Shown here piece after piece: positions 1,451 to 48,749 of a stretch of DNA of 64,000 nt (position 1 is the stretch's first letter; the number at the start of each line of letters is the position of its first letter). The stretch is taken from the NCBI GenBank assembly GCA_039934415.1, contig JBDTME010000001.1, positions 137,417 through 201,416 on the forward strand, read 5' to 3'. The stretch comes from Patescibacteria group bacterium. Lineage in GTDB: Bacteria; Patescibacteriota; Microgenomatia; UBA1400; PJMF01. The translations under genes were made by a program, and so were the position numbers. The notes beneath the pieces are model-generated. The model had not been told where the DNA came from, did no database searches, and saw nothing but the letters and a program-made list of their open reading frames with translations.

Positions 1451-1454
1451 GAAC

Positions 1455-2717: not shown

Positions 2718-2722
2718 TTACA

Positions 2723-5666: not shown

Positions 5667-5709
5667 TATCAAACTTGAATCACTGACATTTCTGTGCGAT
5701 GATCGCCCT

Positions 5710-8492: not shown

Positions 8493-8494
8493 GA

Positions 8495-22900: not shown

Positions 22901-24166
22901 ATGAAGTATTTTCGCTCACTCATATCACATCCCTTTTTAAGAGGAACTTTCATCTTCACATCTCTCTCTTTTGTGGCCAGTTTGTTTAGTTATGCTTTTA
23001 ACTTTTTGCTGGCACACGTTGTATCCCGGACGCAATATGGTGAGTATTCAGCAGCTATTTCGTATTTCTCATTATTCACTGTCCCGTTTGGCGCGCTGAG
23101 CTTAATTTTAATGAAAAAAATAGGCCAAATATCTTTGTCACAGCGGGAAAGTTATGTATTAGCCGTAGAAAAATCGTTCTATCAAAGTATTGCTAAATAT
23201 TTACCACTTATCGCTATCATTTCTTTATTAGTGGGAGTGGTGCTCTTGTTTGTTTCTCGTTTACAACTTTCAAGTGTCGCGTTCGTCCTTGTTTTAACTG
23301 GGATGACTTTTTTTATTACAATTTACACATCATTTTTTCAGGCGAAGAAACAATTTGTATTTGCTGGAGTATTTCTTTGTTTGTTATCTTTGCTCAAAGT
23401 ACTTACTGGCGGAGTTTCGGCTTTTTTCCGAGATGATCTTTGGGAGTTATATCTCATGATTGGAATCATACACGTACTGATGATCTTATTTGCGAAATGG
23501 TATTTGAGGAGAGATGGAAAAAAGATGAGCGTGAATGTTACTTTTCCAAAATTTTCCATTTTAATTGCTCAACAATCTTTTTACATACCGGTTATTACTT
23601 TTCTAGGTTTGGTCGCGATGACTAATATTGATATCATGATTGTCAAACGCTTTTTCGATGCCGCTGACGTAGGTTCGTATGCAGCGATTTCTCTGTTAGG
23701 AAGAATTATCTTATATGTTAGTTTACCTCTAACTACTGTTGCATTTGCTTTTTTCACCGACAAAGAAACAAATAATCACAGTAATTCTGTGCTGTGGATT
23801 AGTTTGGGATTTCTAGCTATTTTAGGAGTCATCAGTGTCGCAGGTTATACGCTTTTTCCAATGTTAGTTGTGAAAATTATTTTTGGGGCACAATATTTGT
23901 CTATTTCTTCTGTAGTTTGGTTAGCTGCAGTGTTTGGTTCTATTTATTCTTTGGCCACCTTGCTTGGTCAATACTGGGTAGCTCAACACCACCCAATTAG
24001 CATGGCTTCTCTATTATGCGCTGCAATACAAGCTGTTTGGTTAATGGTCATGCATGACACGTTTGTCACGGTGTTGTCGATCTCAATTGTGTGCTCAACA
24101 GTCTTACTAGTTATTTACTTGTCTGCCCTCATTTATCACCAAAGGTGGATCTATGTTTCAGCGTGA
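22901..24166 (+). CDS. Wzx-like oligosaccharide flippase / polysaccharide biosynthesis protein (MOP superfamily)
   Basis: 421 aa, about 12 TMs. N-terminal 'LLAHVVSRTQYGEYSAAISY' resembles the Polysacc_synt 'lARlLgpeeyGvys' block. Confidence 0.45.
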   Translation: MKYFRSLISHPFLRGTFIFTSLSFVASLFSYAFNFLLAHVVSRTQYGEYSAAISYFSLFTVPFGALSLILMKKIGQISLSQRESYVLAVEKSFYQSIAKYLPLIAIISLLVGVVLLFVSRLQLSSVAFVLVLTGMTFFITIYTSFFQAKKQFVFAGVFLCLLSLLKVLTGGVSAFFRDDLWELYLMIGIIHVLMILFAKWYLRRDGKKMSVNVTFPKFSILIAQQSFYIPVITFLGLVAMTNIDIMIVKRFFDAADVGSYAAISLLGRIILYVSLPLTTVAFAFFTDKETNNHSNSVLWISLGFLAILGVISVAGYTLFPMLVVKIIFGAQYLSISSVVWLAAVFGSIYSLATLLGQYWVAQHHPISMASLLCAAIQAVWLMVMHDTFVTVLSISIVCSTVLLVIYLSALIYHQRWIYVSA

Positions 24167-24950
24167 CAGCCATTTCTTAAGTCTTATTGTCCCTGCCTTT
24201 CGTCAAGAAAAAACAATCGTTAAGAATATAAAACAGCTCCTGAATGTGTTGGATACTATTCGATACGACTATGAACTCATCATTGTCATTGATGGGAAAG
24301 TTGACGAATCTTTGAAGATTTTAAAAAAAGCGAAATTGGGAAAGACAACAATTGTTAGTTATAAACAAAACCGTGGCAAAGCGTTTGCGATTAGAATGGG
24401 GATGAATCGTGCTAAAGGTGACTATGTCATGTTTATAGATTCAGGATTAGAAATCGATCCAAACGGAATCTCGATGTTACTTGAGCATATGGAGTGGTAT
24501 GACGCTGATGTGATTGTTGGGTCGAAGAGGCACCCAGCTTCTCATGTGAACTATACTTGGCAGCGGAAAATACTGAGTTATGGGTACTATTATTTTGTGC
24601 GATTGTTCTTTGGGTTAAATGTCAGAGATACTCAAGCGGGAATCAAAATTTTCAAGAAATCAGTTTTGGAAAAAATCTTGCACAGATTAGTGGAAAAGAG
24701 ATTTGCGGGAGATTTGGAAATGTTGGTTGTAGCAAGGCAAGTGGGGTCAAGACGTATCTTTGAGGCACCGATTAAGTTAAATTACGAGTTCAGTACATTG
24801 ACTTCAGCTGCTACTTATCGATCGATATTTTTCATTATTGTGGATACGTTAGCTATTTTCTATCGAGCACATATTATTAGATATTACCGAGGGACGCATC
24901 ATCGATTAGTAGAGCCAAAAGACATTCGAATCTACCGTCTGACGAAATGA
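24153..24950 (+). CDS. Family 2 glycosyltransferase, dolichyl/polyprenyl-phosphate sugar synthase-like (DPM1/GtrB/ArnC type)
   Basis: 265 aa. 'LSLIVPAFRQEKTI...IIVIDGKVDES...FIDSGLE' are GT2 motifs. A C-terminal hydrophobic helix 'IFFIIVDTLAIFY' as in GtrB/ArnC. Confidence 0.6.
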   Translation: MFQRDSHFLSLIVPAFRQEKTIVKNIKQLLNVLDTIRYDYELIIVIDGKVDESLKILKKAKLGKTTIVSYKQNRGKAFAIRMGMNRAKGDYVMFIDSGLEIDPNGISMLLEHMEWYDADVIVGSKRHPASHVNYTWQRKILSYGYYYFVRLFFGLNVRDTQAGIKIFKKSVLEKILHRLVEKRFAGDLEMLVVARQVGSRRIFEAPIKLNYEFSTLTSAATYRSIFFIIVDTLAIFYRAHIIRYYRGTHHRLVEPKDIRIYRLTK

Positions 24951-27201: not shown

Positions 27202-28085
27202 TGTACATTCCAGATCGGAAGAGTCTTTCAGTTATTTTAAAAAAATCAGATCAATATCAAAATTGGGTTGACCAATATTTGGTGGATATTGCCGATCAAG
27301 TAAAGATTCAGCACGAGGATGCCTTTTTATATCATCACCAAGACAAATTTGATTCTGAGATGTTTGGATTGAAAGTTGGCAAAATTGAGGACGTCATTGG
27401 TGAAAATAAGTCAAATATTTTACATGTTGTCAATGAATTCTTTGAGACTAACCCATACGAGTATTGTGTAATTCGTTTGGCCCAGCACTTCATTGATTGG
27501 ATTCAAGCATTTCAACAACATGGTGCACTCTTTTTGGATGCTACCGTAGAATTAGTTTGTGACGTTCACAAAGTGAGTACTCCCTCAATTTCTCCGTTGG
27601 TCACTGAGGAGCTTAGTCAGAAAATGATTGACCAGACTTTGGAGATTGCCAGTTCATTCTGCCACGGTCGTTTTTTTACTGATCCAGATCTTCAAAAGGG
27701 GTTTGAAGTGTACACAACTTGGATTCAGAATTCGATTGATAAAAAAGCTGCTGATAGAACTTTCGTGTTATACGACCAAGATCAGGTTCATGGTTTTGCT
27801 ACGATCAAAGGTGGTCTTCTTGGTGATCTAAAGAGTTGGCGAATTCAGTTAGTTGGAAAGCATGGGAACTCGGTTCGCTCTGGGGTGGCTGAAACATTAT
27901 TACAACATGTTATCGCAGTTGCTCAACAAGACAATGTTGACGTTGTTTTGATTGCAACGCAATGCACTAACATCCCTGCCTTACGGGCATATCAGAGTGC
28001 TGGATTTTCACCATATGGGAGTGGAGTCACTTTAGGTTGGAAAAAACATCGGAAGTCGATTCAAGAGGATACTAGCCAAGTTTAA
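27198..28085 (+). CDS. GNAT-fold N-acetyltransferase (WecD-like two-domain sugar N-acetyltransferase)
   Basis: 295 aa. C-terminal GNAT motif A 'VRSGVAETLL' (R-x-x-G-x-A) and 'LRAYQSAGF'. Overlaps the upstream aminotransferase by 4 nt, a WecE/WecD-like arrangement. Confidence 0.45.
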   Translation: MMYIPDRKSLSVILKKSDQYQNWVDQYLVDIADQVKIQHEDAFLYHHQDKFDSEMFGLKVGKIEDVIGENKSNILHVVNEFFETNPYEYCVIRLAQHFIDWIQAFQQHGALFLDATVELVCDVHKVSTPSISPLVTEELSQKMIDQTLEIASSFCHGRFFTDPDLQKGFEVYTTWIQNSIDKKAADRTFVLYDQDQVHGFATIKGGLLGDLKSWRIQLVGKHGNSVRSGVAETLLQHVIAVAQQDNVDVVLIATQCTNIPALRAYQSAGFSPYGSGVTLGWKKHRKSIQEDTSQV

Positions 28086-29631
28086 CAATTAAGTTATCTC
28101 CTGACTGATACACAACGTCTTTTTCTTTTAACCCCAATTCCTTTAATGTCGCAAAACTTGTTCTGACAAGTGCATGAGTAAGTGAGTATTTTTTGGCCAA
28201 TTCTTTGAGCGATATTGTTAAAATAGGGTAAACTTCCTGAATTTTCATTAGCCCTGGATTATCGGCATTTACAAATACCTGTGCATTAGTGTGATATACC
28301 AACAGAGTGGTGTTTTGGTGTGGTACAGACACAATCCTTAGTGGTTTCTTTTGCTTGTTGATATAAGAAAAAATCTGCTGAAGCTCGCTAGTGACGCTAC
28401 GATTTTTGTCTTGTATTACTCCTTTTATTTGGACTGATAAAATAATCACAAGGTTTACGATGAGAAGCACCGTTGTTCCTAGTACTACAACAGTACTAAA
28501 TCGTGTACTAAGTGATTCAAAAACAAGGTACGCACTTAAAAGAGATGAAGGTACCGTTGCCATCTCAAGATAGCGTTGTCCTTCCCCTATTGGCATTAAA
28601 AATTTTATTTTTAACACCAATACACCGAAACAATAGAAGAACAAGATCCAAGCTGCATAAGTTAAGAATAGCGGTGAAATATTTATAAGATTGAAGTACC
28701 CTGCTCCAACAATGAGAAAACCACTGATCGCCCATGGATTTAAGCCAAACACTGCTACCGGTGAAAACACTGATAAAAATCGATAGATTTGACCCACCCA
28801 ATCAGTTTTGGTCTCTTTCTTTAGGACGCCTCTGACTTGATGGGCAAAACGATAATCAAGATTACAAATCCAGAAATAAATATTATAGAGATGTCCTTTT
28901 AGGACTCTTAAGTAGTAGCCTTTTGTTAAACTAACTGCCAACACGAACCCAACTAAAAACACTTGTACAAACAGTGCTGTATTCAGGTAATAAGTGAAAA
29001 ATATTGTGATGAAAAGATAGGATTGAGTTGCGAAACGATGTGTTAGAAATATGAATGTGCCAAAAATAATACCAAGGTATAGATAAATAGGATTGTGAAT
29101 ATAGTAAAAATTTAACAAACTAAGAGTGAGTATCGAAAAGTTGAGGTAGCCCAATGATCTAGGGGTTAAATAGCTATTTTCTAAAGCTACCATTGGTGTC
29201 AAAGCGTACATGAGTTGTGCAAGTAAAGATAAGCCTATATTTCCGGTGAAGTAATGTGTAACACTAAATATGAGCAAGACCTGTATAGAGTCAAAGAATG
29301 GGGCGATGAATCCTTGGAAGTTCAATAGTGTTTTGGGTGGTATAAAAGACAGTATCCAAGGAAAAACAGGTGGATAATCAAAATATCCTTCAATAATAAA
29401 TTGTTCCGAGAGCTTCTTTTGAGGAATGTGATGATTATTTTTGCGAATATGTGCTGTCTCTAATAAACGAGTCCAGACATCTACACCAAATAGCTTATTG
29501 AATAACCTTGGGTAGGATTGTAGAAAAAAACTTAAAATTGGGATGATTATTGCGAAAGGTGACATGTGGCGATAGTATAGGATAGCAAAAGCTATGAACA
29601 AAATAAAGCCTTCAATCAAACCCAAACCCAA
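28072..29631 (-). CDS. Polytopic membrane protein, possibly GT-C-like
   Basis: 519 aa, about 12 TMs followed by a C-terminal soluble domain. 'GQRYLEMATVP' sits at the same relative position as the 'SRY..P' block of neighbouring GT-C paralogs. Probable true start at the internal Met (MSPFAII...) near 29565. Confidence 0.35.
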   Translation of the reverse strand: MGLGLIEGFILFIAFAILYYRHMSPFAIIIPILSFFLQSYPRLFNKLFGVDVWTRLLETAHIRKNNHHIPQKKLSEQFIIEGYFDYPPVFPWILSFIPPKTLLNFQGFIAPFFDSIQVLLIFSVTHYFTGNIGLSLLAQLMYALTPMVALENSYLTPRSLGYLNFSILTLSLLNFYYIHNPIYLYLGIIFGTFIFLTHRFATQSYLFITIFFTYYLNTALFVQVFLVGFVLAVSLTKGYYLRVLKGHLYNIYFWICNLDYRFAHQVRGVLKKETKTDWVGQIYRFLSVFSPVAVFGLNPWAISGFLIVGAGYFNLINISPLFLTYAAWILFFYCFGVLVLKIKFLMPIGEGQRYLEMATVPSSLLSAYLVFESLSTRFSTVVVLGTTVLLIVNLVIILSVQIKGVIQDKNRSVTSELQQIFSYINKQKKPLRIVSVPHQNTTLLVYHTNAQVFVNADNPGLMKIQEVYPILTISLKELAKKYSLTHALVRTSFATLKELGLKEKDVVYQSGDNLIVKLG

Positions 29632-30622
29632 CTGGAGCTATGACATCTCAGTCATCATCGTATGCAGAAATGGGAAACAAGTCACTGAGAATTGTTTAAA
29701 AGGGATTCAGAAAACTAAAGTAAAAGAGATCATTGTAATAGATAATAATTCTTCTGATGGTACAGCTCAATTATTAGATCTATATTCCCGAAAAGATAAA
29801 CGTTTTTATATTATTCACAATGCTGCCAATAATGGCTTTGCAGAAGCAAATAACCAAGGATTCAAAGCTGCTACCGCAAATTTCATTCTTTTTCTAAATA
29901 ATGACACTGAGATAGATCATGATTTCATTCCACCTCTACTAAAGAGTCTCAAACAATCGAAAGTAGCAGCTGTACAACCTATGATTCTGTTTCCTGACGG
30001 TACAATTGATTCTATCGGATCTTATTTAACTCCTACAGGGTTTTTATACCATCGAGCGCATCGAATGAAACCAAATTCAAATTTCCTAAAAGAAGAACCG
30101 GTTTACACACTAAAAGGTGCTTGCATGCTTTGGAAACGTTCAGTCTTGGAGGAGATAGGTCAATTTAATGAAAGTTATTTTGCATATTTTGAAGAGACTG
30201 ATTTGTGTCATCGTGCAATCAACGTGGGTTATGAAGTCGTATACAATCCCCGCTCAACAATTACACATCTAGGCGGATTTACTTCAAATTTAATGGATCA
30301 ACATTTTATCCAGTATCACAATACAAAAAACAGAATAACTACTTATTTCTGTAACTTACCACTTTCGTTATTACTCACTATGTTGCCAATTCATCTGCTA
30401 CTTTCTGAGCTGCTTGTATTCAAAACAATATTTAGTAAAAAACTTCGACTTGCTTGGACTATTCAGAAAGGGTTAATTGAAGGGGTTGTTACTGGAATCT
30501 TGCGCCGCATTCGCGCGATTTCTAAGCCAGCAGTGAGTCTGAGTATCGTCATGAAGCGACCCAGCTTGAAGTATTACAAAGCACTTTTTTCTTCATTACA
30601 AGGTTATACAGAGATATGGTGA
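29594..30622 (+). CDS. Family 2 glycosyltransferase with C-terminal TM helices
   Basis: 342 aa. 'ISVIIVCRNGKQ...IVIDNNSSDGT...NNGFAEANNQG...LNNDTE' are GT2 motifs. C-terminal hydrophobic helices 'LPLSLLLTMLPIHLLLSELLVF'. Confidence 0.65.
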   Translation: MNKIKPSIKPKPNWSYDISVIIVCRNGKQVTENCLKGIQKTKVKEIIVIDNNSSDGTAQLLDLYSRKDKRFYIIHNAANNGFAEANNQGFKAATANFILFLNNDTEIDHDFIPPLLKSLKQSKVAAVQPMILFPDGTIDSIGSYLTPTGFLYHRAHRMKPNSNFLKEEPVYTLKGACMLWKRSVLEEIGQFNESYFAYFEETDLCHRAINVGYEVVYNPRSTITHLGGFTSNLMDQHFIQYHNTKNRITTYFCNLPLSLLLTMLPIHLLLSELLVFKTIFSKKLRLAWTIQKGLIEGVVTGILRRIRAISKPAVSLSIVMKRPSLKYYKALFSSLQGYTEIW

Positions 30623-31116
30623 CACAGTTTCTTAAAGATATATTTTTAACAAATTCAGCCACTTACAGTGGTTTTCCCAACTTTACTGTTTTTTTACCCA
30701 GTGCGATGAGAGACTTGTATTTTGATTACTATGGAAGTGGTACTGGGGCTAAAATTTTACTTATTTTTCTGGTACTCATCCTTTTACCTGCTATGTTTAG
30801 CAAACAGTTTAGACTGAGATATTTTTCAAGAACAGCTTTGTTATTAATTTGCAGTGTGTATGGAAGTTCAACTCAGGTGAGGTTGGCAAACACAGAGATC
30901 CAGCTGAGTGCTATTGGGTTCCCCATACCTCGCATTTCAACCCAGATAGTATATTTCATTTTTTTTGTTGCAACTATTCAGGGGTATTATTTTGTAAGAA
31001 AGTTATGTAACAAAAATTGTCGTAAAGTAATTGTTTATACAGTGGATGCGAGTTTCATCTTGCTTTTCCTCATGTTTCTTCTACCATTTTGGTCAGGAGA
31101 ACTTTTTTCACTATGA
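30616..31116 (+). CDS. Small 4-TM membrane protein (GtrA-like candidate)
   Basis: 166 aa with about 4 hydrophobic helices. Located between a GT2 and a large GT-C-like gene. Confidence 0.3.
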   Translation: MVTQFLKDIFLTNSATYSGFPNFTVFLPSAMRDLYFDYYGSGTGAKILLIFLVLILLPAMFSKQFRLRYFSRTALLLICSVYGSSTQVRLANTEIQLSAIGFPIPRISTQIVYFIFFVATIQGYYFVRKLCNKNCRKVIVYTVDASFILLFLMFLLPFWSGELFSL

Positions 31117-33635
31117 AGAAACAATTTAGATCCAATCTTCTTTTAACAATTTGTGTTGCTTCCTTGCTCTCAGTCCTACTAGTTTTTTTTGTGGGACACA
31201 AGATCCCATATATAAACATTCTTCAAAATTTCGTTTTAACGTTCTGTCTTATTATCTTTTTTGTGAGTCTAAAGTTTAGTTTCCCTAAGTTTAGAGCTGT
31301 GATTATATTAACTACATTTGTTTTAGCTACTTTTTTGTGGTTTGAAAAGAATTCTAGTGCTCTACTTTATACTTTTGTAACACTTTGGTTATTACCACCT
31401 TTAACTTTTCAAAGTGTTAAACGCTTTGTCCTTTTGTTTAAGAATGTTATTTCATATTTGTATCAAAAACATTTTTGGGGAATGCTAGTTCTCAGCTTAT
31501 TTTTTGGGGTTTTTTTGTTTTACAGCAACTCATTTCAGTCATTTTTTGAAGGTGACGAGTGGATATATTTTCGTAATTACAATAATTTGTTAAATAGTAA
31601 GATCTGGTTTATTGAAGGATTTCTACAATCATTTAAGGCTGCTGACTCAGCTACCCCTCATATTACGCCAATAGCAGACATGTTCTTTGTAATTGAGTTC
31701 AAGATTTTTGGTCTTAATTTTATTCAATATCTAGTTACTTCGATTAGCGTTCATATATTCACCAGCATTGTATTAGCTCTTTTAGTTTTTGAAATGACAA
31801 GATCGAAATTAACAACATTAATCTCAACTATCTTCTTTGCTTTTAATTCAATACACTCTGAAGCAATCACTTGGATCATGGCTTCCTTAAATACTGAATT
31901 GGCGGTATTTTTTGGGTTAGCAAGTCTGTTGTTTTTACAAAAGTCCTTTGTGCAAAAAAAAACAAACACATATTTATTTTTAGGATATCTCAGTTTGTTA
32001 TTTTCATTATGGAGTAAAGAGACAGCAGTCATTTTTATTCTTGCAGCTGCTTTTTTAATGTGGAAAAACCGTAGTAAGCTTGAAAAAAAGTTTCACTTTA
32101 AACTATTCTCCATTGTTTTAATTATCTTTCTTTTGACCGAGTTAGTAGGCCGTAGAGCACAAATTCACTTTCAATCTTCGATTGGCACAAACTCTCCTTT
32201 ATTATATCGAGTATTTGATTTGTATTATGAAATTAATCCCGCGTTACTAATTTTCCGATGTATGAGCCTTTTTTTAAAAATGCTGGCACAGTCAATTATT
32301 CCTGTAAAAGTAATAAGTTCTTTATCAATTGTTCTAACTGATTTTCAGTTTCCTTTTTTTAATCAAGAGAAAGCAGTTGGAGGTACTACTTATGTAAATT
32401 TTATTCAGTCACCCATGCCAGAAATGATTAGTTATATTTTGGGATTGTTTGTTTTGTTCTTTATTTTAGTCAGTAAAAAACTTCAATTGAATAAACTCTT
32501 TACATGGGGAGTAGCCTACTGGTTTTTGGGTTTACTACCGATCCTGAGCATCCTGGTTGGGTTCCCCTGGCTAGCTTACTCTCCTTATGTTGGCTCAAGA
32601 CACTTCTATCATTTGATGCCAGGATTGGCATTGTCTGTAGGTATTGTGGTTACTTCATTAGCTAAATGGGTCAAAATTAAAAAAAATGAAAGGGTCGCTC
32701 AACTTTTTTTATGTTTAATTACTTTTTCATATATTTATGTCCAGTACAGAGTTCAAGCATTTGATACATTAACAAGGAAAAAAGCTGCAGACTTTACTGC
32801 ACGCAAGAATATTGTTGAGACATTAGTCAAAGATCTTGATCCGATTCCTAAAAAAACAATTATTTACACCACTAGTAATCGAAACTACTATGGCTTCGGT
32901 CTACTTATGTTGCCCTTTCAAACTGCTTTTTCTCATATGTTGCCTGTTATCTTTTCGGAGAACTTCAATTTGCATGGGCTTTTATATCCGAGTTCCTTCT
33001 ACAGTAATGAATACTTTAAAGATTCCACAGATGGATTAGCGACTCAAGGATACTTTGAAGAAAATGGATATGGTCTTGGCTATTTTTTAGAAAAACCAAA
33101 ATTAATTAGAGCTCTAGAGCATGCTGATCTGGGCGTTGAGTACGTATATGCATATCGATTTAATGGCGATGATAACACCTTTTCAAACATGACTGATGAA
33201 TTACGATCTGAATTGAGCAGAGTGCTTGAGTCAAGAATGATGTTCCGAAAATGGAGAACGGAAGAATTCCCGGATGATTTTTTTCTATTTCAAGTTGACC
33301 CAAATTGGCTGGTAAAAAAACAAGAGACTAGCTACTCTATCTTTGATGAGAGAAATAAACCCATTTTAGAAATAGAAATATTTAGGGATATGAAGAAAGT
33401 AAATTTTTTTCAGTTTGTTACCGATCAAGTTGTGGAAGGAAAGAAGATTGACACCAAAATTGGAACAGATACTCTAAATTCTGATCTAGGTCTGAGTAGA
33501 GTGAAATACTACCCTAACTGGAATGAGAACATCTTCTTTGTGGCAGGAGGTCGAGGTACAACATTTTATAGATTTAAAGTATTTCAAAAAGAAGAGGCTA
33601 AGTTGATCTATAGAACTTTGGAATTTGTGGACTAA
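31089..33635 (+). CDS. Large GT-C-like membrane protein with C-terminal extracytoplasmic domain
   Basis: 848 aa, about 14 TMs in the N-terminal 560 aa. First loop 'SFFEGDEWIYFRNY' carries a DE motif. 'SRHFYHLMP' is the SRY-type block. The C-terminal roughly 290-aa soluble domain has no recognisable motif. Confidence 0.45.
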   Translation: MVRRTFFTMKKQFRSNLLLTICVASLLSVLLVFFVGHKIPYINILQNFVLTFCLIIFFVSLKFSFPKFRAVIILTTFVLATFLWFEKNSSALLYTFVTLWLLPPLTFQSVKRFVLLFKNVISYLYQKHFWGMLVLSLFFGVFLFYSNSFQSFFEGDEWIYFRNYNNLLNSKIWFIEGFLQSFKAADSATPHITPIADMFFVIEFKIFGLNFIQYLVTSISVHIFTSIVLALLVFEMTRSKLTTLISTIFFAFNSIHSEAITWIMASLNTELAVFFGLASLLFLQKSFVQKKTNTYLFLGYLSLLFSLWSKETAVIFILAAAFLMWKNRSKLEKKFHFKLFSIVLIIFLLTELVGRRAQIHFQSSIGTNSPLLYRVFDLYYEINPALLIFRCMSLFLKMLAQSIIPVKVISSLSIVLTDFQFPFFNQEKAVGGTTYVNFIQSPMPEMISYILGLFVLFFILVSKKLQLNKLFTWGVAYWFLGLLPILSILVGFPWLAYSPYVGSRHFYHLMPGLALSVGIVVTSLAKWVKIKKNERVAQLFLCLITFSYIYVQYRVQAFDTLTRKKAADFTARKNIVETLVKDLDPIPKKTIIYTTSNRNYYGFGLLMLPFQTAFSHMLPVIFSENFNLHGLLYPSSFYSNEYFKDSTDGLATQGYFEENGYGLGYFLEKPKLIRALEHADLGVEYVYAYRFNGDDNTFSNMTDELRSELSRVLESRMMFRKWRTEEFPDDFFLFQVDPNWLVKKQETSYSIFDERNKPILEIEIFRDMKKVNFFQFVTDQVVEGKKIDTKIGTDTLNSDLGLSRVKYYPNWNENIFFVAGGRGTTFYRFKVFQKEEAKLIYRTLEFVD

Positions 33636-36520: not shown

Positions 36521-37522
36521 ATGATAAATCAACAGACAACTCCAATAGTCATCACATCAATTTTTTCTCCTAACGAGGTGATAAAGCAGTTTGTAAAAAA
36601 AGGTTTCAAATTATACATCGCAGGTGACAAAAAGACACCTAAAAATTGGTCATTTGAAAACTGTGAATATCTCTCTATTGAGAGTCAGTTCAGATATGAG
36701 AAGCTAGCGGAAATCACTCCTGAAAATCATTATGCTCGGAAAAACTTTGCATATTTAGCTGCTATAGAATCTGGAGCATCTGAGATTTTTGAAACTGATG
36801 ATGACAATTACCCACAAAGTAATTATCCCAGTTTCCTGGAAAAGTCTACACAAAGTGTTCAAATATTAAAGAGTTCAGATCGGTTTTTTAATATTTATTC
36901 GGAGTTTCTGGCAGGTGATCAAGTAGTTTGGCCTAGAGGATATCCTTTAAAACAGATTTTAAATACACCTAAAAAACTCAGTAGGAAGACAAAAACAATA
37001 AATACCTTTATTCAGCAATCTTTGATTGATAATGATACAGATGTTGATGCTATTTATCGATTGACTAATAATAGACCAGTTACTTTTATCAAAGATAAAA
37101 AGTTGGCTTTAGATAAACATGTCTATGCTCCATTTAACTCTCAAAATACTGCGTGGTTTCCTCCTGCTTACTTATTTCTATACTTACCATCAACAGTTGG
37201 GAGTCGCGTCTGTGATATCCTTAGAGGATGGATCGCGCAACGTATGAGTTGGGAGATTGATTCTCATCTACTTTTTCTTTCACCTTGTGCGTATCAACTG
37301 AGGAATGAACATGATTATTTAAAAGATTTTAAAGATGAGTTGCCATTGTATATCGAAACGGAGAGAACAATTGAAATTTTAGAAACTACAAGTTTAACAG
37401 GCAGCACCCAATCGAAATTTGTGCAAATATATCAGGCTTTGGCGAAAGCAAACATTGTTCAACCTGAAGAAGTAAACAAAGTAAAGGCATGGATCAAAAT
37501 ATTATCCACACTTTTAAAATGA
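36521..37522 (+). CDS. Hypothetical protein, candidate unclassified GT-A-like glycosyltransferase (DDD motif)
   Basis: 333 aa, soluble. 'ASEIFETDDDNYP' (DDD at nt 36797-36805) follows a predicted beta-strand, as D-x-D motifs do. No match to a family I can name from sequence alone. Confidence 0.35.
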   Translation: MINQQTTPIVITSIFSPNEVIKQFVKKGFKLYIAGDKKTPKNWSFENCEYLSIESQFRYEKLAEITPENHYARKNFAYLAAIESGASEIFETDDDNYPQSNYPSFLEKSTQSVQILKSSDRFFNIYSEFLAGDQVVWPRGYPLKQILNTPKKLSRKTKTINTFIQQSLIDNDTDVDAIYRLTNNRPVTFIKDKKLALDKHVYAPFNSQNTAWFPPAYLFLYLPSTVGSRVCDILRGWIAQRMSWEIDSHLLFLSPCAYQLRNEHDYLKDFKDELPLYIETERTIEILETTSLTGSTQSKFVQIYQALAKANIVQPEEVNKVKAWIKILSTLLK

Positions 37523-38271
37523 TGAAAAGAAACACTCAAACTACAGTTTCGCTAGCTATACTAGTTAAAAATGAGTTCCAATCCTCTGAGGTGATTTTTC
37601 CTCTTATACCCAAAGGCATTGTGGACACTGTTTTTGTTATAGATGGGGGATCTGTAGATGGTACGGTAGAGTACTATAAAAAAAATAATGTACAAGTGTA
37701 TGGTCAATCAGTTTCAGGTTTAGGAGGCGCAGTTTTTGAAGCGAGAAAACGTTGCAAAGATGATTCCTTCATACTGTTTCATCCGGATGGGAATGAAGAT
37801 CCTCTGGACATTGAAATTATTGCATCATACTTGAGAAGAGGTCGTGAATTTGTGATTCCATCAAGGATGATTAAAGGTGCTTGGAATGAAGAAGATACTG
37901 AGTATTTACGGCCTAGAAAATGGTTCAATAAATCAATGGCTCTCCTGAGTAATCTTTTGTGGAATGAGTCTAATCCATTTGTTTCTGAAATAGTACAAGG
38001 TTTCAGAGGAATTCGTTGTGATGTCTTTGACAATCTAAATTTAGATAGAACTGATTGTACTGTTGATTTTCAGATGGTAATTAGAGCTTTAAAACAGAAT
38101 ATCCCGATTTTAGAATTTCCAACGAAAGAAGGAAACCGATTGTTTGGAGAGACTCATTTTAAATCACTTGAGACAGGGGCTAAAGAATTGGACATGTTTG
38201 CTCAAGAAATTTTTAATGAAGAAACTTATTTTGTCGAGGCAAATGCAGCTCAGTTAGTTGAGGCCAGTTGA
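37489..38271 (+). CDS. Family 2 glycosyltransferase-like protein
   Basis: 260 aa. 'VSLAILVKNEF...VFVIDGGSVDGT' is a GT2 N-terminal signature. 'FHPDGNEDP' contains an acidic motif. Confidence 0.5.
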   Translation: MDQNIIHTFKMMKRNTQTTVSLAILVKNEFQSSEVIFPLIPKGIVDTVFVIDGGSVDGTVEYYKKNNVQVYGQSVSGLGGAVFEARKRCKDDSFILFHPDGNEDPLDIEIIASYLRRGREFVIPSRMIKGAWNEEDTEYLRPRKWFNKSMALLSNLLWNESNPFVSEIVQGFRGIRCDVFDNLNLDRTDCTVDFQMVIRALKQNIPILEFPTKEGNRLFGETHFKSLETGAKELDMFAQEIFNEETYFVEANAAQLVEAS

Positions 38272-39474: not shown

Positions 39475-39477
39475 AAT

Positions 39478-45010: not shown

Positions 45011-48000
45011 ATGAAAAAAAAATTCTTATTTTTAAATAAAAAAGAATTTCTCTCAGTTTTCATACTTCTTTGTATCTCACTTATGCCTTTTTCCTGGCTT
45101 CGAGGTGGATATACAGTACTTGGTCATGATTCAGGACTGCCAGTTTCACCAATAGCCCATTTTTCAGATCGACTCCAAACGTGGACTGATCGCTACGACG
45201 CTGGAGGTGATCAAACATTTGCACTTGGTGGTTTTTTCATACATGGCTTAGAAGCCCTTATTGCTCTAACCGGTTTTTCTTTGTCTACACAGCAAGCTAT
45301 TCAATTCAGTTTATACATCTTTTTAATTGGTGTGAGCATGTACTTTTTTTGTAAAATGAGTTGGGGAAGAGACAGTGAATTATTGGCAGTAAGTGCAGCA
45401 GTTTTTTACCAAATAAATCACTTTGTTTTGCAAGGGTGGTTTATTGCAGAGAGAACAAAGTTCTCGCTGTATATTGCACTGCCTCTATTATTGGTTTTAT
45501 TCTATAAACTCTTCACTTCGAAAGTCTCACCTATTAAAATTGGAATTTTGTCAGCGTTGGTCCTATTTTTCTTAAATGGTGGAGGGTTTCTCCCATTATT
45601 TGCAGGTGTATTCATTTCTCTTGGCGTATGGACATTAGTTCTTCTAAGAAGTACTGAACATTTCACCATAACTTTCAGAAAATTTTTGATATATTGTTTG
45701 ACTTTTTTTGTTTTCAATCTAATTCTGCAGTTATATTGGATTTTACCGTATGCAATTTATGTTAAAAATAATTTTCAAGCAGAAGTTAACCAGGCTGGAG
45801 GTACGGAGGGAGTAGTTAATTGGGTGTTATCAATTAGCCAAAACACCTCATATCTCAACCTGTTTAAGCTACAAGGAATTCAAGAGTGGTACGTAAATGA
45901 GCAACACCCATACGCAAAAATTTATTTTTCAAGTCGATTTTTAATGCTGTCAGCTTATATTTTTGTGTTTGTGCTAGTTTTTAACGCATTTAAGATTGCA
46001 AGAAACAAAAGAGTATTACAGTTAACCTGCTTAGCAACTGTGCTCGTCTCTATTTTCTTTATGGCAGGCTCTCATGCTCCATTTGGGGGCATATATTTGT
46101 GGATGATCAAACATGTACCAGGATTTATTGCTTTTAGAACACCTTATTATAAATTCGCACCTGCTTTTTTTGTAAGCTATGCGCCATTATTAGGATTTGC
46201 GATAGCTTCATTTTTTAAATTTAAGTTTGTCAAGCGTTTGCCTTATCTTTTAAAAGTGTTCATTCCAGTGGGACTTCTTTGTTTATATTTCTTTCCTTTT
46301 TTTACTATTAATTTTTTTCAGTACACAAATGAGCTTTCGACAAAAGTAAAAGTACCTCAGTATGTTTTTGAGTTCGCAAGTAGAAGTAACTCTGCGGAGT
46401 ACCCGTATAGACGAACTGCTTTGATACCAGGTAATAATCCAGAAAATTCAGTACACAGCTATACTTGGGGGTATTGGAGTTTGGCTTCATTAGAGTCACT
46501 CCTTGATCGACATGCATATATCACTCCTTCCTATGGTTTCACCTTAAATAAAAAAATGGTCGTAGACCTTTACGCAGCTTTAAGAAACAATGACCCTGTC
46601 TGGGAACAACTTGCTGATCATCTACAGATAGACAGTCTCCTCGTTCAAAAGGATTTTGTGCCTTACAAATATAAAGGAGTCGAAATATCCGCCGATTCTT
46701 ATGTTAAAGCAATTCAATCATCAGCCAGAGTGAAGCTGGAAGAAGATTTTGGTGAGTGGCAACTGTATAGTTTTGAGAAAAAGTTGTCACCTATCGCAGA
46801 TTCGTATGTGGAAGTACAAGATCAAACAGAACAGTTTGGAACCGCTAGTTTCGTGCATCAGTTGTTCAAGAATCCTAAAATAGTTTTTTCTGATAGGCCA
46901 ATGAATGACAATCTCATAACAAGGTCAGGATATGTAATCTTTCCGCAATGTCAGGATTGTCTTTTATTGAGAACACAAGTCTATTTTGCAAACCCTAACA
47001 TTATAGTGACCCCTGGTTCTACGCTTGAATCATTCAACTCATTATTTTTAGTTTTTTCAAAAAATAATCAAGCTTTGCCACCTGTCGATACTTTACAGTC
47101 ACTTTATGTTATTCAAGCTTCATTTAACAGAAAAGGTGAAAGTGGTGGTCGGATAGCGATCTGGCAGCGTTATACAACAGGTCTTGATTTATATCAGAAA
47201 GAGATTGATAAAACTTTGAAGAATTTTGATCGAACTACGACTCAGAATGCATTGTTGCAAGGATATTATAATAATCTGCTTTTTCAGTTATCAAACTTGA
47301 AAGATATCAGCAATTTGATAAATACAAAAGATGAAGCTGATATGTTTCTTTCAAACGTGAAAACAGTTAAAGAATTAATTGGCCGGATCGAGTCCCAGAT
47401 AGTCTCAACAAAAATCGTTCATTCAAATGTTTTTCTCGCAGATGTTCAAGAAAAAAACAATTTTTCTGTTTATGTTCATCAGCCATCATTGAACCAATAT
47501 AAATCCAATCTTCAAAACAAGATCACAGTACATTTTGATAATTCGGAACTATCTACACAAATTAATCCAAGCAGTGAGTGGGTGAAAGTAGGTACAGTTG
47601 AGCTCGATAAAGGTGGTCAAAAAATCACAGTCGATGACATTCCATTAGATAATAGTAGCTATTTCTCTGAACAGATAAGAAACGGTAGTGCATCACAAGA
47701 AGGACTTAGTGTTGAATTTGGTGCAACACAACCCTGCACCACCATGCCTATAGGTGAATTAACAGATAATAGATATAACTTATCTTTTGAAATAAAAAGT
47801 AACTTAGGGGAGGTCGAACCTTCTTTCCATATTGTAACTACTGATGATGTTTCTCCAGAGTTGCCTTTCTGGGGGGTAAAGCAAAAAGTTACAGACGGTT
47901 CTTGGAAAAAGATACTGCTACCTTTCGCTGGTTTATCTCATAAACAATATCTTTTCAAAATTTGTGATACAAGTGCGAAAGAGAACGCTGAACTTTCAAT

Positions 48001-48415
48001 CAGAAATCTCAACCTTGATCGAGCAGTCGAACCTTTAGTAGCGCTAGTTTCTGTTTCAGGCTCAGAACCTACTAACACTTTAACTCCGCTTATGACTTTC
48101 ACATCACAGAACAATACTCACTATGATATTAATATCCAGAACCCATATAAAGGTGTCTTGAGATTGCCACTCGCGTCAAATTCATATTGGAAACCTTCAG
48201 ACTCTTCCCTTGAAAATACACGTGTGGATGGGGCAATGTTGGGATACTATATTGACGAAAAAACTGAATCAGAGAATTTTACCATTTCATATGAGATTCA
48301 AAAATACTACGTTGCTGCATGGGTGATTTCAGTCTCAGGATTTATTGTAGCGATAATATATTTATTATTTAGTGTAATCAAAAATTATGCTGCAGAAGCA
48401 TCTACTAAACGTTAA
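45011..48415 (+). CDS. Giant membrane protein: N-terminal polytopic (GT-C-like) domain plus roughly 600-aa extracytoplasmic C-terminal domain with C-terminal TM anchor
   Basis: 1134 aa. About 12-14 TMs in the first roughly 480 aa, then a long soluble region rich in Asn/Ser/Thr. The final hydrophobic helix is 'YYVAAWVISVSGFIVAIIYLLFSVI'. The architecture resembles the AftD/YfhO-type membrane glycosyltransferases. Confidence 0.4.
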   Translation: MKKKFLFLNKKEFLSVFILLCISLMPFSWLRGGYTVLGHDSGLPVSPIAHFSDRLQTWTDRYDAGGDQTFALGGFFIHGLEALIALTGFSLSTQQAIQFSLYIFLIGVSMYFFCKMSWGRDSELLAVSAAVFYQINHFVLQGWFIAERTKFSLYIALPLLLVLFYKLFTSKVSPIKIGILSALVLFFLNGGGFLPLFAGVFISLGVWTLVLLRSTEHFTITFRKFLIYCLTFFVFNLILQLYWILPYAIYVKNNFQAEVNQAGGTEGVVNWVLSISQNTSYLNLFKLQGIQEWYVNEQHPYAKIYFSSRFLMLSAYIFVFVLVFNAFKIARNKRVLQLTCLATVLVSIFFMAGSHAPFGGIYLWMIKHVPGFIAFRTPYYKFAPAFFVSYAPLLGFAIASFFKFKFVKRLPYLLKVFIPVGLLCLYFFPFFTINFFQYTNELSTKVKVPQYVFEFASRSNSAEYPYRRTALIPGNNPENSVHSYTWGYWSLASLESLLDRHAYITPSYGFTLNKKMVVDLYAALRNNDPVWEQLADHLQIDSLLVQKDFVPYKYKGVEISADSYVKAIQSSARVKLEEDFGEWQLYSFEKKLSPIADSYVEVQDQTEQFGTASFVHQLFKNPKIVFSDRPMNDNLITRSGYVIFPQCQDCLLLRTQVYFANPNIIVTPGSTLESFNSLFLVFSKNNQALPPVDTLQSLYVIQASFNRKGESGGRIAIWQRYTTGLDLYQKEIDKTLKNFDRTTTQNALLQGYYNNLLFQLSNLKDISNLINTKDEADMFLSNVKTVKELIGRIESQIVSTKIVHSNVFLADVQEKNNFSVYVHQPSLNQYKSNLQNKITVHFDNSELSTQINPSSEWVKVGTVELDKGGQKITVDDIPLDNSSYFSEQIRNGSASQEGLSVEFGATQPCTTMPIGELTDNRYNLSFEIKSNLGEVEPSFHIVTTDDVSPELPFWGVKQKVTDGSWKKILLPFAGLSHKQYLFKICDTSAKENAELSIRNLNLDRAVEPLVALVSVSGSEPTNTLTPLMTFTSQNNTHYDINIQNPYKGVLRLPLASNSYWKPSDSSLENTRVDGAMLGYYIDEKTESENFTISYEIQKYYVAAWVISVSGFIVAIIYLLFSVIKNYAAEASTKR

Positions 48416-48749
48416 TCACTGGTACAGAAAGAACTTTCCTTATCTGATACCAGTGTCATTCTTGGTGCTTATCTCCTTCATTTTAGACAGAATTCCATAC
48501 TTAAATCTCTTTGCAGGAATGCTCTCAACAGTTTTAATCTTTGTTTCATTATTGTCTTTATGGTTCATTACACTTCGGACTTTATTGTCTTTCAGGTTGA
48601 TGATACTGAGTCTTTTTGTTGTTTTTCTACTATTTGATTTTTTACACTTGAGTAACTATTCAGAGACACTTGGAAGTGTGTTTTACTTATTTATGTTTCT
48701 TTTTATAATCTATTCTGTATGGCAAAAAAAACAGTTGTTTTCATCTTAA
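48387..48749 (+). CDS. Small 4-TM membrane protein (GtrA-like candidate)
   Basis: 120 aa. Four hydrophobic helices. Sits between the giant membrane protein and a GT-C gene. Confidence 0.3.
   Translation: MLQKHLLNVNHWYRKNFPYLIPVSFLVLISFILDRIPYLNLFAGMLSTVLIFVSLLSLWFITLRTLLSFRLMILSLFVVFLLFDFLHLSNYSETLGSVFYLFMFLFIIYSVWQKKQLFSS

What the first reader, a model, noticed from the sequence alone, without database searches (positions are those of the whole stretch)
29594..33635. Gtr-like three-component module: membrane-tailed GT2, small 4-TM protein, large GT-C
The gene order is GT2 with C-terminal TM helices (29594-30622), a 166-aa 4-TM protein (30616-31116) and an 848-aa GT-C-like protein (31089-33635), with 7-28-nt overlaps. 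It mirrors the GtrB/GtrA/GtrC (or ArnC/ArnEF/ArnT) logic: a polyprenyl-phosphate sugar synthase, a small flippase, and a periplasmic GT-C transferase. A second small 4-TM protein (48387-48749) is wedged between the giant membrane protein and another GT-C (48719-50293). A DPM1-like GT2 (24153-24950) is also present. Repetition of this triad suggests modular lipid-linked monosaccharide decoration systems.
Basis: inference. Interest (0 to 1): 0.55.

Follow-up and report, generated by a model that had tools for sequence, protein, structure and literature searches.

The report
GT2, small membrane protein, GT-C operon
Three overlapping genes in a large surface-sugar locus of an uncultured Patescibacteria bacterium are real and keep their order in relatives, but two of the three do not belong to the protein families that the proposed Gtr/Arn-type sugar-decoration scheme requires.

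Summary
The three ORFs exist as described: 29594-30622, 30616-31116 and 31089/31113-33635, with ATGGTGA and ATGA overlaps. GT2 and the GT-C lie within 10 kb in all 18 related loci and are adjacent in 15.

- **Large protein.** It is a GT-C by predicted fold. All of the top 20 PDB matches are STT3, PglB, ArnT, DPY19, ALG9, AftA, AglB or Pmt4. It carries an invariant EGDEW motif.
- **GT2.** Its whole catalytic domain does not match GtrB, ArnC or DPMS, and it has no conserved C-terminal TM pair.
- **166-aa protein.** It belongs to a tiny orphan family: 17 representatives among 1.84 billion proteins, all stand-alone. None hits GtrA, SMR or DUF2304. It is missing from five orthologous loci. In one locus (L014) a related 3-TM segment appears fused in frame to the GT-C.
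- **Second small protein (48387-48749).** It is unrelated to the first and resembles the GT-C's own N-terminal 4-TM extension.

GtrB/DPMS-like GT2s do exist elsewhere in the locus (24153-24950, 37489-38271), next to Wzx-like proteins and at least 8 GT-C genes. Lipid-linked sugar decoration therefore probably operates across the locus, but not as this triad. I read the small protein as a GT-C accessory subunit, not a flippase.

Interest is moderate to low.

The parts
29594..30622 (+). GT2_342: family-2 glycosyltransferase of the generic 'LNNDT ... YFEETDLCHR' type. It has one moderately hydrophobic C-terminal helix (res 252-277) with a conserved His/Glu, and no TM pair.
   Evidence: PF00535 at 2e-28. 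Best NCBIfam matches are MftF, PgaC and rhamnosyltransferase; ArnC scores only 18.5 bits. The family profile against PDB matches GtrB/ArnC/DPMS only over positions 1-111. Hydropathy of 13 orthologs is.
30616..31116 (+). small166: orphan 4-helix membrane protein. Conserved features are LY..YY..G.G before TM1, an LPI loop and a C-terminal LP..GEL. Predicted topology is N-out/C-out.
   Evidence: ORF and ATGGTGA/ATGA overlaps. Orthologs A2/A6. 17 stand-alone representatives. No Pfam or PDB match. K/R distribution. Helices from the low-confidence AF2 model.
31113..33635 (+). big840: GT-C glycosyltransferase. The ORF is open from TTG 31089; the likely start is ATG 31113.
   Evidence: AF2 model with pLDDT 78 and pTM 0.69. 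The Foldseek top 20 are all GT-C enzymes. 3 of 10 homologs hit PMT_2 weakly. hhalign against gtc524 gives E 1.4e-4.
31113..31460 (+). N-terminal ~4-TM extension of big840 with an invariant G..PY.N motif. It is absent from some orthologs and resembles the stand-alone small120 protein.
   Evidence: Alignments A1 and A4. hhalign of A3 against A4 gives probability 89%, E 2e-6. The A4 HMM finds small120 orthologs.
31548..31562 (+). Invariant EGDEW motif (res 146-150). It follows the first core TM helix (121-140) and is the candidate catalytic acidic motif of the first extracytoplasmic loop.
   Evidence: Invariant in 10 of 10 homologs. Translation check. Helix positions.
32838..33632 (+). C-terminal mixed alpha/beta domain of big840 (res ~576-840), predicted extracytoplasmic. 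It includes the invariant SN..YGF...MLPFQT.
   Evidence: Secondary structure and pLDDT of 80-95 in this region. Conservation.
28072..29631 (-). up519: divergently transcribed polytopic membrane protein of unknown family. The likely true start is M23 at 29565. It is the most conserved gene of the block.
   Evidence: 57-63% identity across loci. It lies directly upstream of big840 in L007, L011 and L015. No Pfam or PDB match in 9 members.
22901..24166 (+). mem421: ~11-TM protein, weakly Wzx-like. Its end overlaps the start of GT2_265.
   Evidence: hhalign against wzx396 gives E 2.5e-4 over 282 columns, probability 43%. The mem421-GT2_265 pair is conserved.
24153..24950 (+). GT2_265: GtrB/ArnC/DPMS-like GT2 without a TM pair. 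It is the better candidate for polyprenyl-phosphate sugar synthase.
   Evidence: PDB matches over the whole catalytic domain: GtrB 5ekp 6e-12, ArnC 9hwj 5e-10, DPMS 5mlz 4e-8. NCBIfam: PgfS, ArnC, PpgS, AglJ.
37489..38271 (+). GT2_260: second DPMS-like GT2.
   Evidence: Its only PDB hit is Pyrococcus DPMS 5mlz, E 5e-6, res 19-226. It co-occurs with dn667 in L012.
45011..48415 (+). giant1134: AftD-like GT-C membrane protein.
   Evidence: Orthologs in L001 and L003 carry PF11847 GT-C_AftD. The window protein itself has no significant Pfam hit.
48387..48749 (+). small120: 4-TM protein with an invariant PY.NL motif. It is unrelated to small166 and resembles the N-terminal extension of big840.
   Evidence: It always follows the giant protein. 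It is fused to a methyltransferase in L003 and L005.
48719..50293 (+). gtc524: PMT_2-type GT-C.
   Evidence: PF13231 at 5e-7. TIGR03663 Agl23-like at 8e-7.
50349..51539 (+). wzx396: Wzx/MOP-type flippase candidate.
   Evidence: PF01943 at 1.7e-12 and PF13440 at 1e-10.

Best explanation
The three genes form a conserved, translationally coupled core inside a >50-kb cell-surface glycan locus of an uncultured Patescibacteria (CPR) bacterium.

**Shown.**
- The 840-aa product is a GT-C-fold membrane glycosyltransferase. It has an invariant EGDEW motif where the first extracytoplasmic loop of the core should be, plus a large C-terminal outer domain.
- The 342-aa GT2 is a generic GT-A enzyme outside the GtrB/ArnC/DPM1 group.
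- The 166-aa protein belongs to a tiny orphan family.

**Inferred.**
- The GT-C works on the outer face of the membrane and uses a polyprenyl-linked donor.
- The 166-aa protein is an accessory membrane subunit of that GT-C, not a GtrA/SMR flippase. Its conserved parts are predicted to face outward. It always sits directly upstream of the GT-C. One relative appears to carry a 3-TM version fused to the GT-C N-terminus. It is dispensable in some lineages.
- The GT2 acts at the cytoplasmic face. It probably adds a sugar to the lipid-linked glycan that the GT-C later modifies or transfers, and does not make the polyprenyl-P-monosaccharide donor.
- That donor is more likely made by the two GtrB/DPMS-like GT2s of the locus (24153-24950, 37489-38271). 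It would then be flipped by the Wzx-like proteins (22901-24166, 50349-51539).

For: - **GT-C identity.** The AF2 model has pLDDT 78. The top 20 Foldseek PDB matches are all GT-C enzymes. EGDEW is invariant.
- **Synteny.** GT2_342 is directly upstream of the GT-C in 15 of 18 related loci and within 10 kb in all 18.
- **GT2 type.** against for the DPM-like GT2s.
- **Small protein.** No GtrA, SMR or DUF2304 hit in 18 members. 17 stand-alone representatives. K/R-rich loops 1-2 and 3-4. An in-frame fused small166-like segment in the 963-aa GT-C ORF of L014, E 3e-4 to 8e-4 with the next hit at 0.12.
- **Other variants.** L012 has the domain as the C-terminal half of a 346-aa membrane protein, and L010 has a 93-aa form.
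- **Flippase candidates.** Wzx-like proteins.
- **Precedent.** Systems with a separate membrane partner and a Wzx flippase are described in PMC8035078 and bioRxiv 10.1101/180810.
Against: - No biochemical data exist for any part.
- The small protein could not be modelled (pLDDT 53), and its topology rests only on the positive-inside rule.
- The L014 fusion is a single MAG contig with a modest E-value.
- Tight coupling of GT2, small protein and GT-C is also what a Gtr-like donor pathway would look like.
- Failure to match the GtrB group does not prove that GT2_342 cannot use a polyprenyl phosphate acceptor.
- The mem421-Wzx link is weak (probability 43%).
- The donor type of the GT-C is unresolved. 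It could be a Pol-P-monosaccharide or a Pol-PP-glycan. The best fold hits are oligosaccharyltransferases, while the sequence link is to PMT_2.
Confidence: 0.5

Rival explanations
1. The reader's model, a self-contained Gtr/Arn-like triad. GT2_342 makes a polyprenyl-phosphate monosaccharide, the 166-aa protein flips it, and the GT-C transfers it to a surface polymer.
For: The gene order matches, with translational coupling. GT2-GT-C adjacency is conserved in 15 of 18 loci. The last enzyme has a GT-C fold with PMT_2-like affinity. The middle protein has 4 helices.
Against: GT2_342 matches GtrB/ArnC/DPMS only in the N-terminal half, and ArnC scores 18.5 bits against a cut-off of 529. There is no conserved TM pair. 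18 of 18 small-protein members have no GtrA or SMR hit at E<=10. The small gene is absent from L003, L005 and L016-18 even though GT2 and GT-C stay adjacent there. Its conserved residues are predicted to lie outside. True GtrB/DPMS-like GT2s and Wzx-like proteins sit elsewhere in the locus.
Confidence: 0.2
2. The 166-aa protein is a membrane anchor or activator of the GT2, analogous to GacJ for GacI, Rv3632 for PpgS or DPM3 for DPM1. It is not a partner of the GT-C.
For: A 7-nt ATGGTGA overlap with the GT2 is conserved in the window and in L001, L002, L004, L006, L009 and L010. Such partners have precedent. The GT2 has only weak membrane attachment of its own.
Against: No member hits DUF2304. 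No GT2-small fusion appears among the 17 representatives. The only fusions seen are to the GT-C (L014) or to another membrane protein (L012). The conserved segments are predicted extracytoplasmic. GT2 orthologs from loci without the small gene show no compensating C-terminal change.
Confidence: 0.12
3. The GT-C is an oligosaccharyl or polymer transferase of the PglB/STT3 type, or a polymerase. It uses a polyprenyl-diphosphate-linked glycan that GT2_342 helps complete. It would not be a monosaccharide-decorating enzyme.
For: The best Foldseek hits are STT3 and PglB at 1e-4 to 9e-4, ahead of ArnT at 2.5e-3. GT2_342 resembles enzymes that act on lipid-PP-linked acceptors, including the rhamnosyltransferase TIGR01556 and GlfT1. 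A partly conserved FPWWGY segment recalls the WWDYG motif.
Against: The sequence-level link is to PMT_2 and gtc524, not to STT3. The WW motif is not invariant (WLAY in the window) and sits before further TM helices, not at the start of the outer domain. TM-scores are low, 0.31-0.38.
Confidence: 0.15
4. The small ORF is an artefact: a frameshifted N-terminus of the large gene, or a chance ORF.
For: One ortholog (L014) appears to have a related segment fused in frame to the GT-C. In L006 the small gene is itself split by a frameshift.
Against: A separate gene with its own ATG and a 4-13-nt overlap is found in the window and in L001, L002, L004, L008 and L009. All 17 representatives are stand-alone full-length proteins of 145-170 aa. 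The large protein has its own conserved N-terminus starting at ATG 31113.
Confidence: 0.01

Closest known systems
Gtr O-antigen glucosylation cassette (GtrA/GtrB/GtrC) and the CsbB/GtcA/YfhO-type three-component systems of Gram-positive bacteria (PMC8035078)
   Same: The gene order is GT-A enzyme, then small 4-helix membrane protein, then large GT-C. The genes overlap. The setting is a surface-glycan locus.
   Different: The GT2 is not in the GtrB/CsbB sequence group and has no TM pair. The small protein is not a GtrA-family member and is predicted N-out/C-out. The small protein is missing in some orthologous loci.
GacI/GacJ/GacK/GacL system of Streptococcus pyogenes (bioRxiv 10.1101/180810; PMC8035078) and mycobacterial PpgS/Rv3632
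   Same: At the level of the whole locus the parts match: short DPM1-like GT2s without TM anchors (24153-24950, 37489-38271), Wzx-type flippase candidates, GT-C transferases and small accessory membrane proteins.
   Different: The small proteins here are not DUF2304 (GacJ/Rv3632) members. The small protein of the triad seems tied to the GT-C and not to the synthase. Many more GT-Cs are present (at least 8 in 64 kb).
ArnC/ArnE-ArnF/ArnT lipid A aminoarabinose pathway
   Same: A DegT aminotransferase, an acyltransferase, an ArnC-like GT2 (24153-24950) and ArnT/PMT_2-like GT-Cs lie in one locus. ArnT (5f15) is among the fold matches of the 840-aa protein.
   Different: No SMR-type ArnE/F is present. 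All Arn equivalog scores are far below cut-off. The organism has no known lipid A.
ArnT/PMT/PMT_2-type GT-C enzymes (GT39/GT83-like) and mycobacterial Aft/Emb arabinosyltransferases
   Same: The fold matches. An acidic DE-containing motif follows the first core TM helix. A large extracytoplasmic C-terminal domain is present. An AftD-like giant protein lies in the same locus.
   Different: The window protein has no Pfam or NCBIfam hit. The family has only about 10-20 known members, all in uncultured Patescibacteria-like MAGs. It carries an extra detachable 4-TM N-terminal module.

Membership tests
Gtr three-component system (GtrB/GtrA/GtrC) | A GtrB-type GT2: the whole catalytic domain belongs to the DPM1/GtrB/ArnC group. 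| tested here: not met
   GT2_342 alone has no GtrB/ArnC/DPMS hit at E<=1e-3. Its family profile hits them only over positions 1-111. By contrast, GT2_265 matches GtrB 5ekp across res 8-188 at 6e-12.
Gtr three-component system (GtrB/GtrA/GtrC) | A pair of C-terminal TM helices on the GT2. | tested here: not met
   There is one helix with KD 1.3-2.4 and a conserved His/Glu. A second segment stays below 1.5 in 12 of 13 orthologs. This is a hydropathy test only.
Gtr three-component system (GtrB/GtrA/GtrC) | The small protein belongs to the GtrA family (PF04138). | tested here: not met
   0 of 18 small166 members and 0 of 4 small120 members hit PF04138 at E<=10.
Gtr three-component system (GtrB/GtrA/GtrC) | The terminal enzyme has the GT-C fold. 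| tested here: met
   AF2 pLDDT 78. The Foldseek top 20 are all GT-C enzymes.
Gtr three-component system (GtrB/GtrA/GtrC) | Formation, flipping and use of a polyprenyl-phosphate monosaccharide. | not testable with these tools
   This needs enzyme assays.
Arn pathway (ArnC/ArnE-F/ArnT) | The small proteins are SMR/ArnE-F type (PF00893). | tested here: not met
   No PF00893 hit in any member. The A6 profile gives 0 PDB hits at E<=10.
Arn pathway (ArnC/ArnE-F/ArnT) | An ArnC equivalog (NF007986, cut-off 529 bits). | tested here: not met
   GT2_342 scores 18.5 bits and GT2_265 scores 48.2 bits.
GacI/J/K/L-type multi-component transmembrane glycosylation | A small partner of the DUF2304 (GacJ/Rv3632) family. 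| tested here: not met
   DUF2304 is absent from all Pfam hit lists at E<=10. The family assignment of GacJ comes from bioRxiv 10.1101/180810.
GacI/J/K/L-type multi-component transmembrane glycosylation | A DPM1-like GT-A without a TM anchor, a Wzx-type flippase and a GT-C in one locus. | tested here: met
   GT2_265 and GT2_260. wzx396 PF01943. mem421 is weakly Wzx-like. GT-Cs. This holds for the locus, not for the triad.
GT-C superfamily (840-aa protein) | A polytopic N-terminal domain with a conserved acidic motif in the first extracytoplasmic loop. | tested here: met
   EGDEW is invariant in 10 of 10 homologs and follows helix 121-140 directly. Its outward orientation is inferred.
GT-C superfamily (840-aa protein) | Membership of a curated sequence family (PMT_2 PF13231). 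| tested here: inconclusive
   The window protein has no hit. 3 of 10 homologs hit PMT_2, best E 1.4e-4. hhalign against gtc524 gives probability 53%.
AftD-like GT-C (1134-aa protein) | A match to PF11847 GT-C_AftD. | tested here: inconclusive
   Orthologs in L001 and L003 carry the precomputed hit. The window protein shows no such hit at E<=0.1.

The most novel reading that the evidence does not exclude
The 166-aa family and the PY.N 4-TM module (small120, equal to the N-terminal extension of the GT-C) are new classes of small membrane modules. They would dock onto GT-C enzymes of Patescibacteria. One of them could deliver or flip the polyprenyl-linked donor directly at the GT-C, replacing GtrA, SMR or Wzx flippases in these reduced genomes. 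The 840-aa protein would then found a new GT-C family with a detachable adaptor module.
Probability: 0.15. Interest if true: 0.55.

Novelty: new variant of a known kind. Interest (0 to 1): 0.35.

Why it matters
Patescibacteria have tiny genomes, yet this one spends more than 50 kb on surface glycans, including at least 8 GT-C enzymes. Their envelope polymers are chemically unknown.

The result warns against reading every 'GT2, small membrane protein, GT-C' gene row as a Gtr cassette. It points to the likelier donor synthases. It also flags two unannotated membrane modules, and a GT-C family that is mis-annotated in the public record (truncated, lacking its catalytic motif), as targets for work on how GT-C enzymes recruit partners. 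It does not overturn any known principle.

Tried and rejected
- **Frameshift artefact.** Rejected. The frames differ, and the separate gene is conserved.
- **GtrA, SMR or DUF2304 membership of either small protein.** Rejected by Pfam scans of all family members at E<=10 and by a PDB profile search.
- **Homology between the two small proteins.** Rejected: hhalign E 0.43.
- **Word-indexed homolog search with the small protein.** It found only itself. With the alignment it found 4 proteins.
- **AF2 model of the small protein.** It was too poor (pLDDT 53), so no fold search was run on it.
- **PDB sequence search with the GT-C family profile.** It found nothing.
- **up519.** I tried to assign it by hhalign to the GT-Cs or Wzx, by Pfam and by PDB. 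There was no match.
- **Literature.** Searches for Patescibacteria, CPR or Daviesbacteria glycosylation or GT-C work found nothing relevant.
- **WWDYG-like motif.** Considered and set aside, because it is not invariant and is misplaced.

Full report
**Observation.**
- GT2: 29594-30622 (342 aa).
- Small ORF: 30616-31116 (166 aa).
- Large ORF: 31089-33635 (848 aa from TTG).

The first junction reads ATGGTGA, a 7-nt overlap. At the second junction an ATG at 31113 overlaps the small ORF's stop as ATGA. Orthologs start at the equivalent Met and show the same 4-nt overlap, so I take 31113 as the start, giving 840 aa. The small and large ORFs are in different frames. The second small ORF (48387-48749, 120 aa) lies between a 1134-aa membrane protein and a PMT_2-type GT-C, as stated.

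**Source and setting.** An identical protein is held in NCBI as a hypothetical protein of a 'Patescibacteria group bacterium' MAG. That public gene model starts at residue 159. It therefore omits the N-terminal helices and the invariant acidic motif.

Window positions 20-64 kb form one large glycan locus. It contains:
- sugar epimerases and dehydratases, a DegT aminotransferase, a GNAT and methyltransferases;
- GT4 and GT2 enzymes;
- an MBOAT/AlgX pair and Wzx-like proteins;
- many polytopic membrane proteins.

**The large protein is a GT-C.** The window protein has no Pfam, NCBIfam or PDB sequence hit. Only nine full-length homologs were found, at 30-39% identity.
- *Conserved motifs.* The invariant motifs are YFEGDEW (res 144-150), SKE, RH.YH and SN..YGF...MLPFQT.
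- *Model.* The AF2 model built from this alignment has pLDDT 78 and pTM 0.69. About 15 helices are followed by a mixed alpha/beta C-terminal domain.
- *Fold matches.* The top 20 Foldseek matches in the PDB are all GT-C enzymes: STT3, PglB, ArnT, DPY19, ALG9, AftA, AglB and Pmt4. Probability is about 1.0, E-values start at 1e-4, and TM-scores are low at 0.31-0.38.
- *Sequence links.* Three of ten family members hit PMT_2 weakly. The family aligns to the locus's PMT_2 protein with E 1.4e-4.
- *Catalytic motif.* EGDEW directly follows helix 121-140. That is where GT-C enzymes of the ArnT/PMT type carry their acidic motif. This last point rests on established knowledge of the family.

**The GT2 is not GtrB-like.** GT2_342 is a clear PF00535 protein.
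- *Best matches.* Its best NCBIfam matches, all below cut-off, are MftF, PgaC and the rhamnosyltransferase subfamily. ArnC scores 18.5 bits against a cut-off of 529.
- *PDB, single sequence.* It finds only generic GT2s.
- *PDB, profile of nine orthologs.* It matches chondroitin and heparosan synthases and GalT1. It matches ppGalNAc-transferases across the whole catalytic domain. DPMS, GtrB and ArnC match only over positions 1-111.
- *C-terminus.* It has one moderately hydrophobic helix with a conserved His and usually a Glu. The next segment is below the TM threshold in 12 of 13 orthologs.
- *Contrast.* GT2_265 (24153-24950) matches GtrB (6e-12), ArnC (5e-10) and DPMS (4e-8) across its catalytic domain. 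GT2_260 (37489-38271) has Pyrococcus DPMS as its only PDB hit.

**The 166-aa protein.** It has no Pfam or NCBIfam hit. Orthologs from related loci are 21-35% identical. They share the motifs LY..YY..G.G, LPI and LP..GEL.
- *Family size.* An exhaustive profile search of 1.84 billion representatives found 17 proteins. All are 145-170 aa, all match end to end, and none is fused.
- *Known small-protein families.* None of 18 members hits GtrA, SMR or DUF2304 at E<=10. The profile finds nothing in the PDB.
- *Structure.* The AF2 model is poor (pLDDT 53) but shows four long helices.
- *Topology.* Lys and Arg concentrate in loops 1-2 and 3-4. The positive-inside rule therefore predicts N-out/C-out, which places the conserved segments outside. 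This is an inference.

**Synteny.** I compared 18 related loci. One comes from a Ca. Daviesbacteria MAG. Several binned MAG records are titled 'Gammaproteobacteria', which I could not verify.

The conserved block runs in this order:
1. mem421, GT2_265, GT4, DegT, GNAT;
2. up519 on the opposite strand;
3. GT2_342, the small protein, the GT-C;
4. epimerase, GT4, epimerase, methyltransferase;
5. the AftD-like giant, small120, a PMT_2 protein, Wzx.

GT2_342 lies directly upstream of the GT-C in 15 of 18 loci. In L007, L011 and L015 it lies elsewhere, and up519 precedes the GT-C. The small gene varies between loci:

| State of the small gene | Loci |
|---|---|
| Separate gene between GT2 and GT-C | window, L001, L002, L004, L008, L009 |
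| Split by a frameshift | L006 |
| Divergent or shortened | L013, L010 |
| C-terminal half of a 346-aa membrane protein | L012 |
| Absent | L003, L005, L016-18 |
| 3-TM version apparently fused in frame to the N-terminus of a 963-aa GT-C ORF | L014 |

For L014 the match has E 3e-4 to 8e-4, and the next hit is at 0.12. Keeping three helices in that fusion fits an N-out/C-out four-helix protein joined to an N-in GT-C.

**The second small protein.** small120 is unrelated to small166.
- Its family matches the N-terminal roughly 75 residues of the 840-aa GT-C family, with hhalign probability 89% and E 2e-6. Both share a PY(L/I)N motif after the first helix. The GT-C N-extension HMM retrieves small120 orthologs.
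- It always follows the AftD-like giant protein.
- In L003 and L005 it is fused to the N-terminus of a methyltransferase.

It therefore looks like a portable 4-TM module and not a flippase. There is no second triad.

- two DPM1-like GT2s;
- Wzx-like proteins (mem421 only weakly);
- at least 8 GT-C genes.

The triad itself fails two of the three family tests for a Gtr or Arn cassette. My best reading, at confidence 0.5, has three parts:
- GT2_342 acts on a lipid-linked glycan at the inner face.
- The GT-C acts outside.
- The 166-aa protein is a lineage-specific accessory subunit of the GT-C.

The rivals and my confidence in each are:
- a GacJ-like activator of the GT2, 0.12;
- an oligosaccharyltransferase-like role for the GT-C, 0.15.

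The last rival overlaps with my best reading, so these figures are not meant to sum to one. The frameshift artefact is excluded for this window.

**Novelty and score.** The system is a variant of a known kind. It includes an unannotated GT-C family and two orphan membrane modules, confined so far to uncultured Patescibacteria-like genomes. A specialist would find it mildly interesting, not surprising. Interest is 0.35.

Noticed in passing
window 48387-48749; window 31113-31460; L003 14518-15621; L005 14479-15582: The 120-aa protein resembles the N-terminal 4-TM extension of the 840-aa GT-C through a shared PY(L/I)N motif (hhalign probability 89%). In two relatives it is fused to the N-terminus of a SAM methyltransferase. 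It always follows the AftD-like giant protein. It looks like a portable membrane module of unknown role.
   Followed up: partly
window 28072-29631 (-): up519 is the most conserved gene of the block (57-63% identity, against 30-39% for the GT-C). It is a polytopic protein with many invariant polar residues (DYPP, ENS..TPRS, HRF, GEGQRY.E) and a ~100-aa C-terminal soluble domain. It has no Pfam or PDB match. It is duplicated in L016-L018 and lies directly upstream of the GT-C in L007, L011 and L015. Its listed TTG start overlaps the GT2 start by 38 nt. The real start is probably M23 at 29565, which leaves only ~28 nt between the divergent genes.
   Followed up: partly
window 7011-8492, 16308-17831, 31113-33635, 45011-48415, 48719-50293, 58775-60385, 60378-62111, 62092-63789: At least eight GT-C-type genes lie in 64 kb of a Patescibacteria genome. 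Three are tandem paralogs at 58775-63789 (23-27% identity). Four further polytopic proteins of unknown family are also present: up519, dn667, mem406 and the 570-aa protein at 55221-56933.
   Followed up: partly
window 33646-35649 (-), 36521-37522, 37489-38271; L012 12126-15773: A DPMS-like GT2 (37489-38271), a STELLO-like protein and the 667-aa 12-TM protein dn667 co-occur in the window and in the Daviesbacteria locus L012. This may be another synthase plus membrane transferase set.
   Followed up: no
window 7011-11246 (-): A paralog of GT2_342 (10269-11246, 28% identity) is followed on the minus strand by a 612-aa Wzy_C (O-antigen ligase/polymerase-like) protein and a PMT-type GT-C, with overlapping ends. 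This is a second instance of 'generic GT2, then membrane protein, then GT-C'.
   Followed up: no
window 31113-33635: The public NCBI gene model for this protein (682 aa, ABI425_00880) starts at residue 159. It omits the N-terminal helices and the invariant EGDEW motif. Among public sources, the 166-aa gene product was found only in Logan assemblies.
   Followed up: yes
L012 8967-10007; L014 9554-12445; L010 1976-2257: The middle gene is architecturally variable. It is the C-terminal half of a 346-aa membrane protein in a Daviesbacteria MAG, a 3-TM segment apparently fused to the GT-C in L014, and a 93-aa 3-TM form in L010.
   Followed up: partly
window 38275-40884 (-); L016/L017 12135-14664: An MBOAT plus AlgX-like SGNH pair (a polysaccharide O-acetylation module) is present. 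In L016 and L017 it sits directly downstream of the GT-C ortholog.
   Followed up: no
window 227-7014: The start of the window encodes glycogen or starch-type metabolism (GT5/GT4 synthase, GH57, GH15, phosphoglucose isomerase). ruvB is at 11876-12883. The glycan locus is therefore not one uninterrupted island.
   Followed up: no
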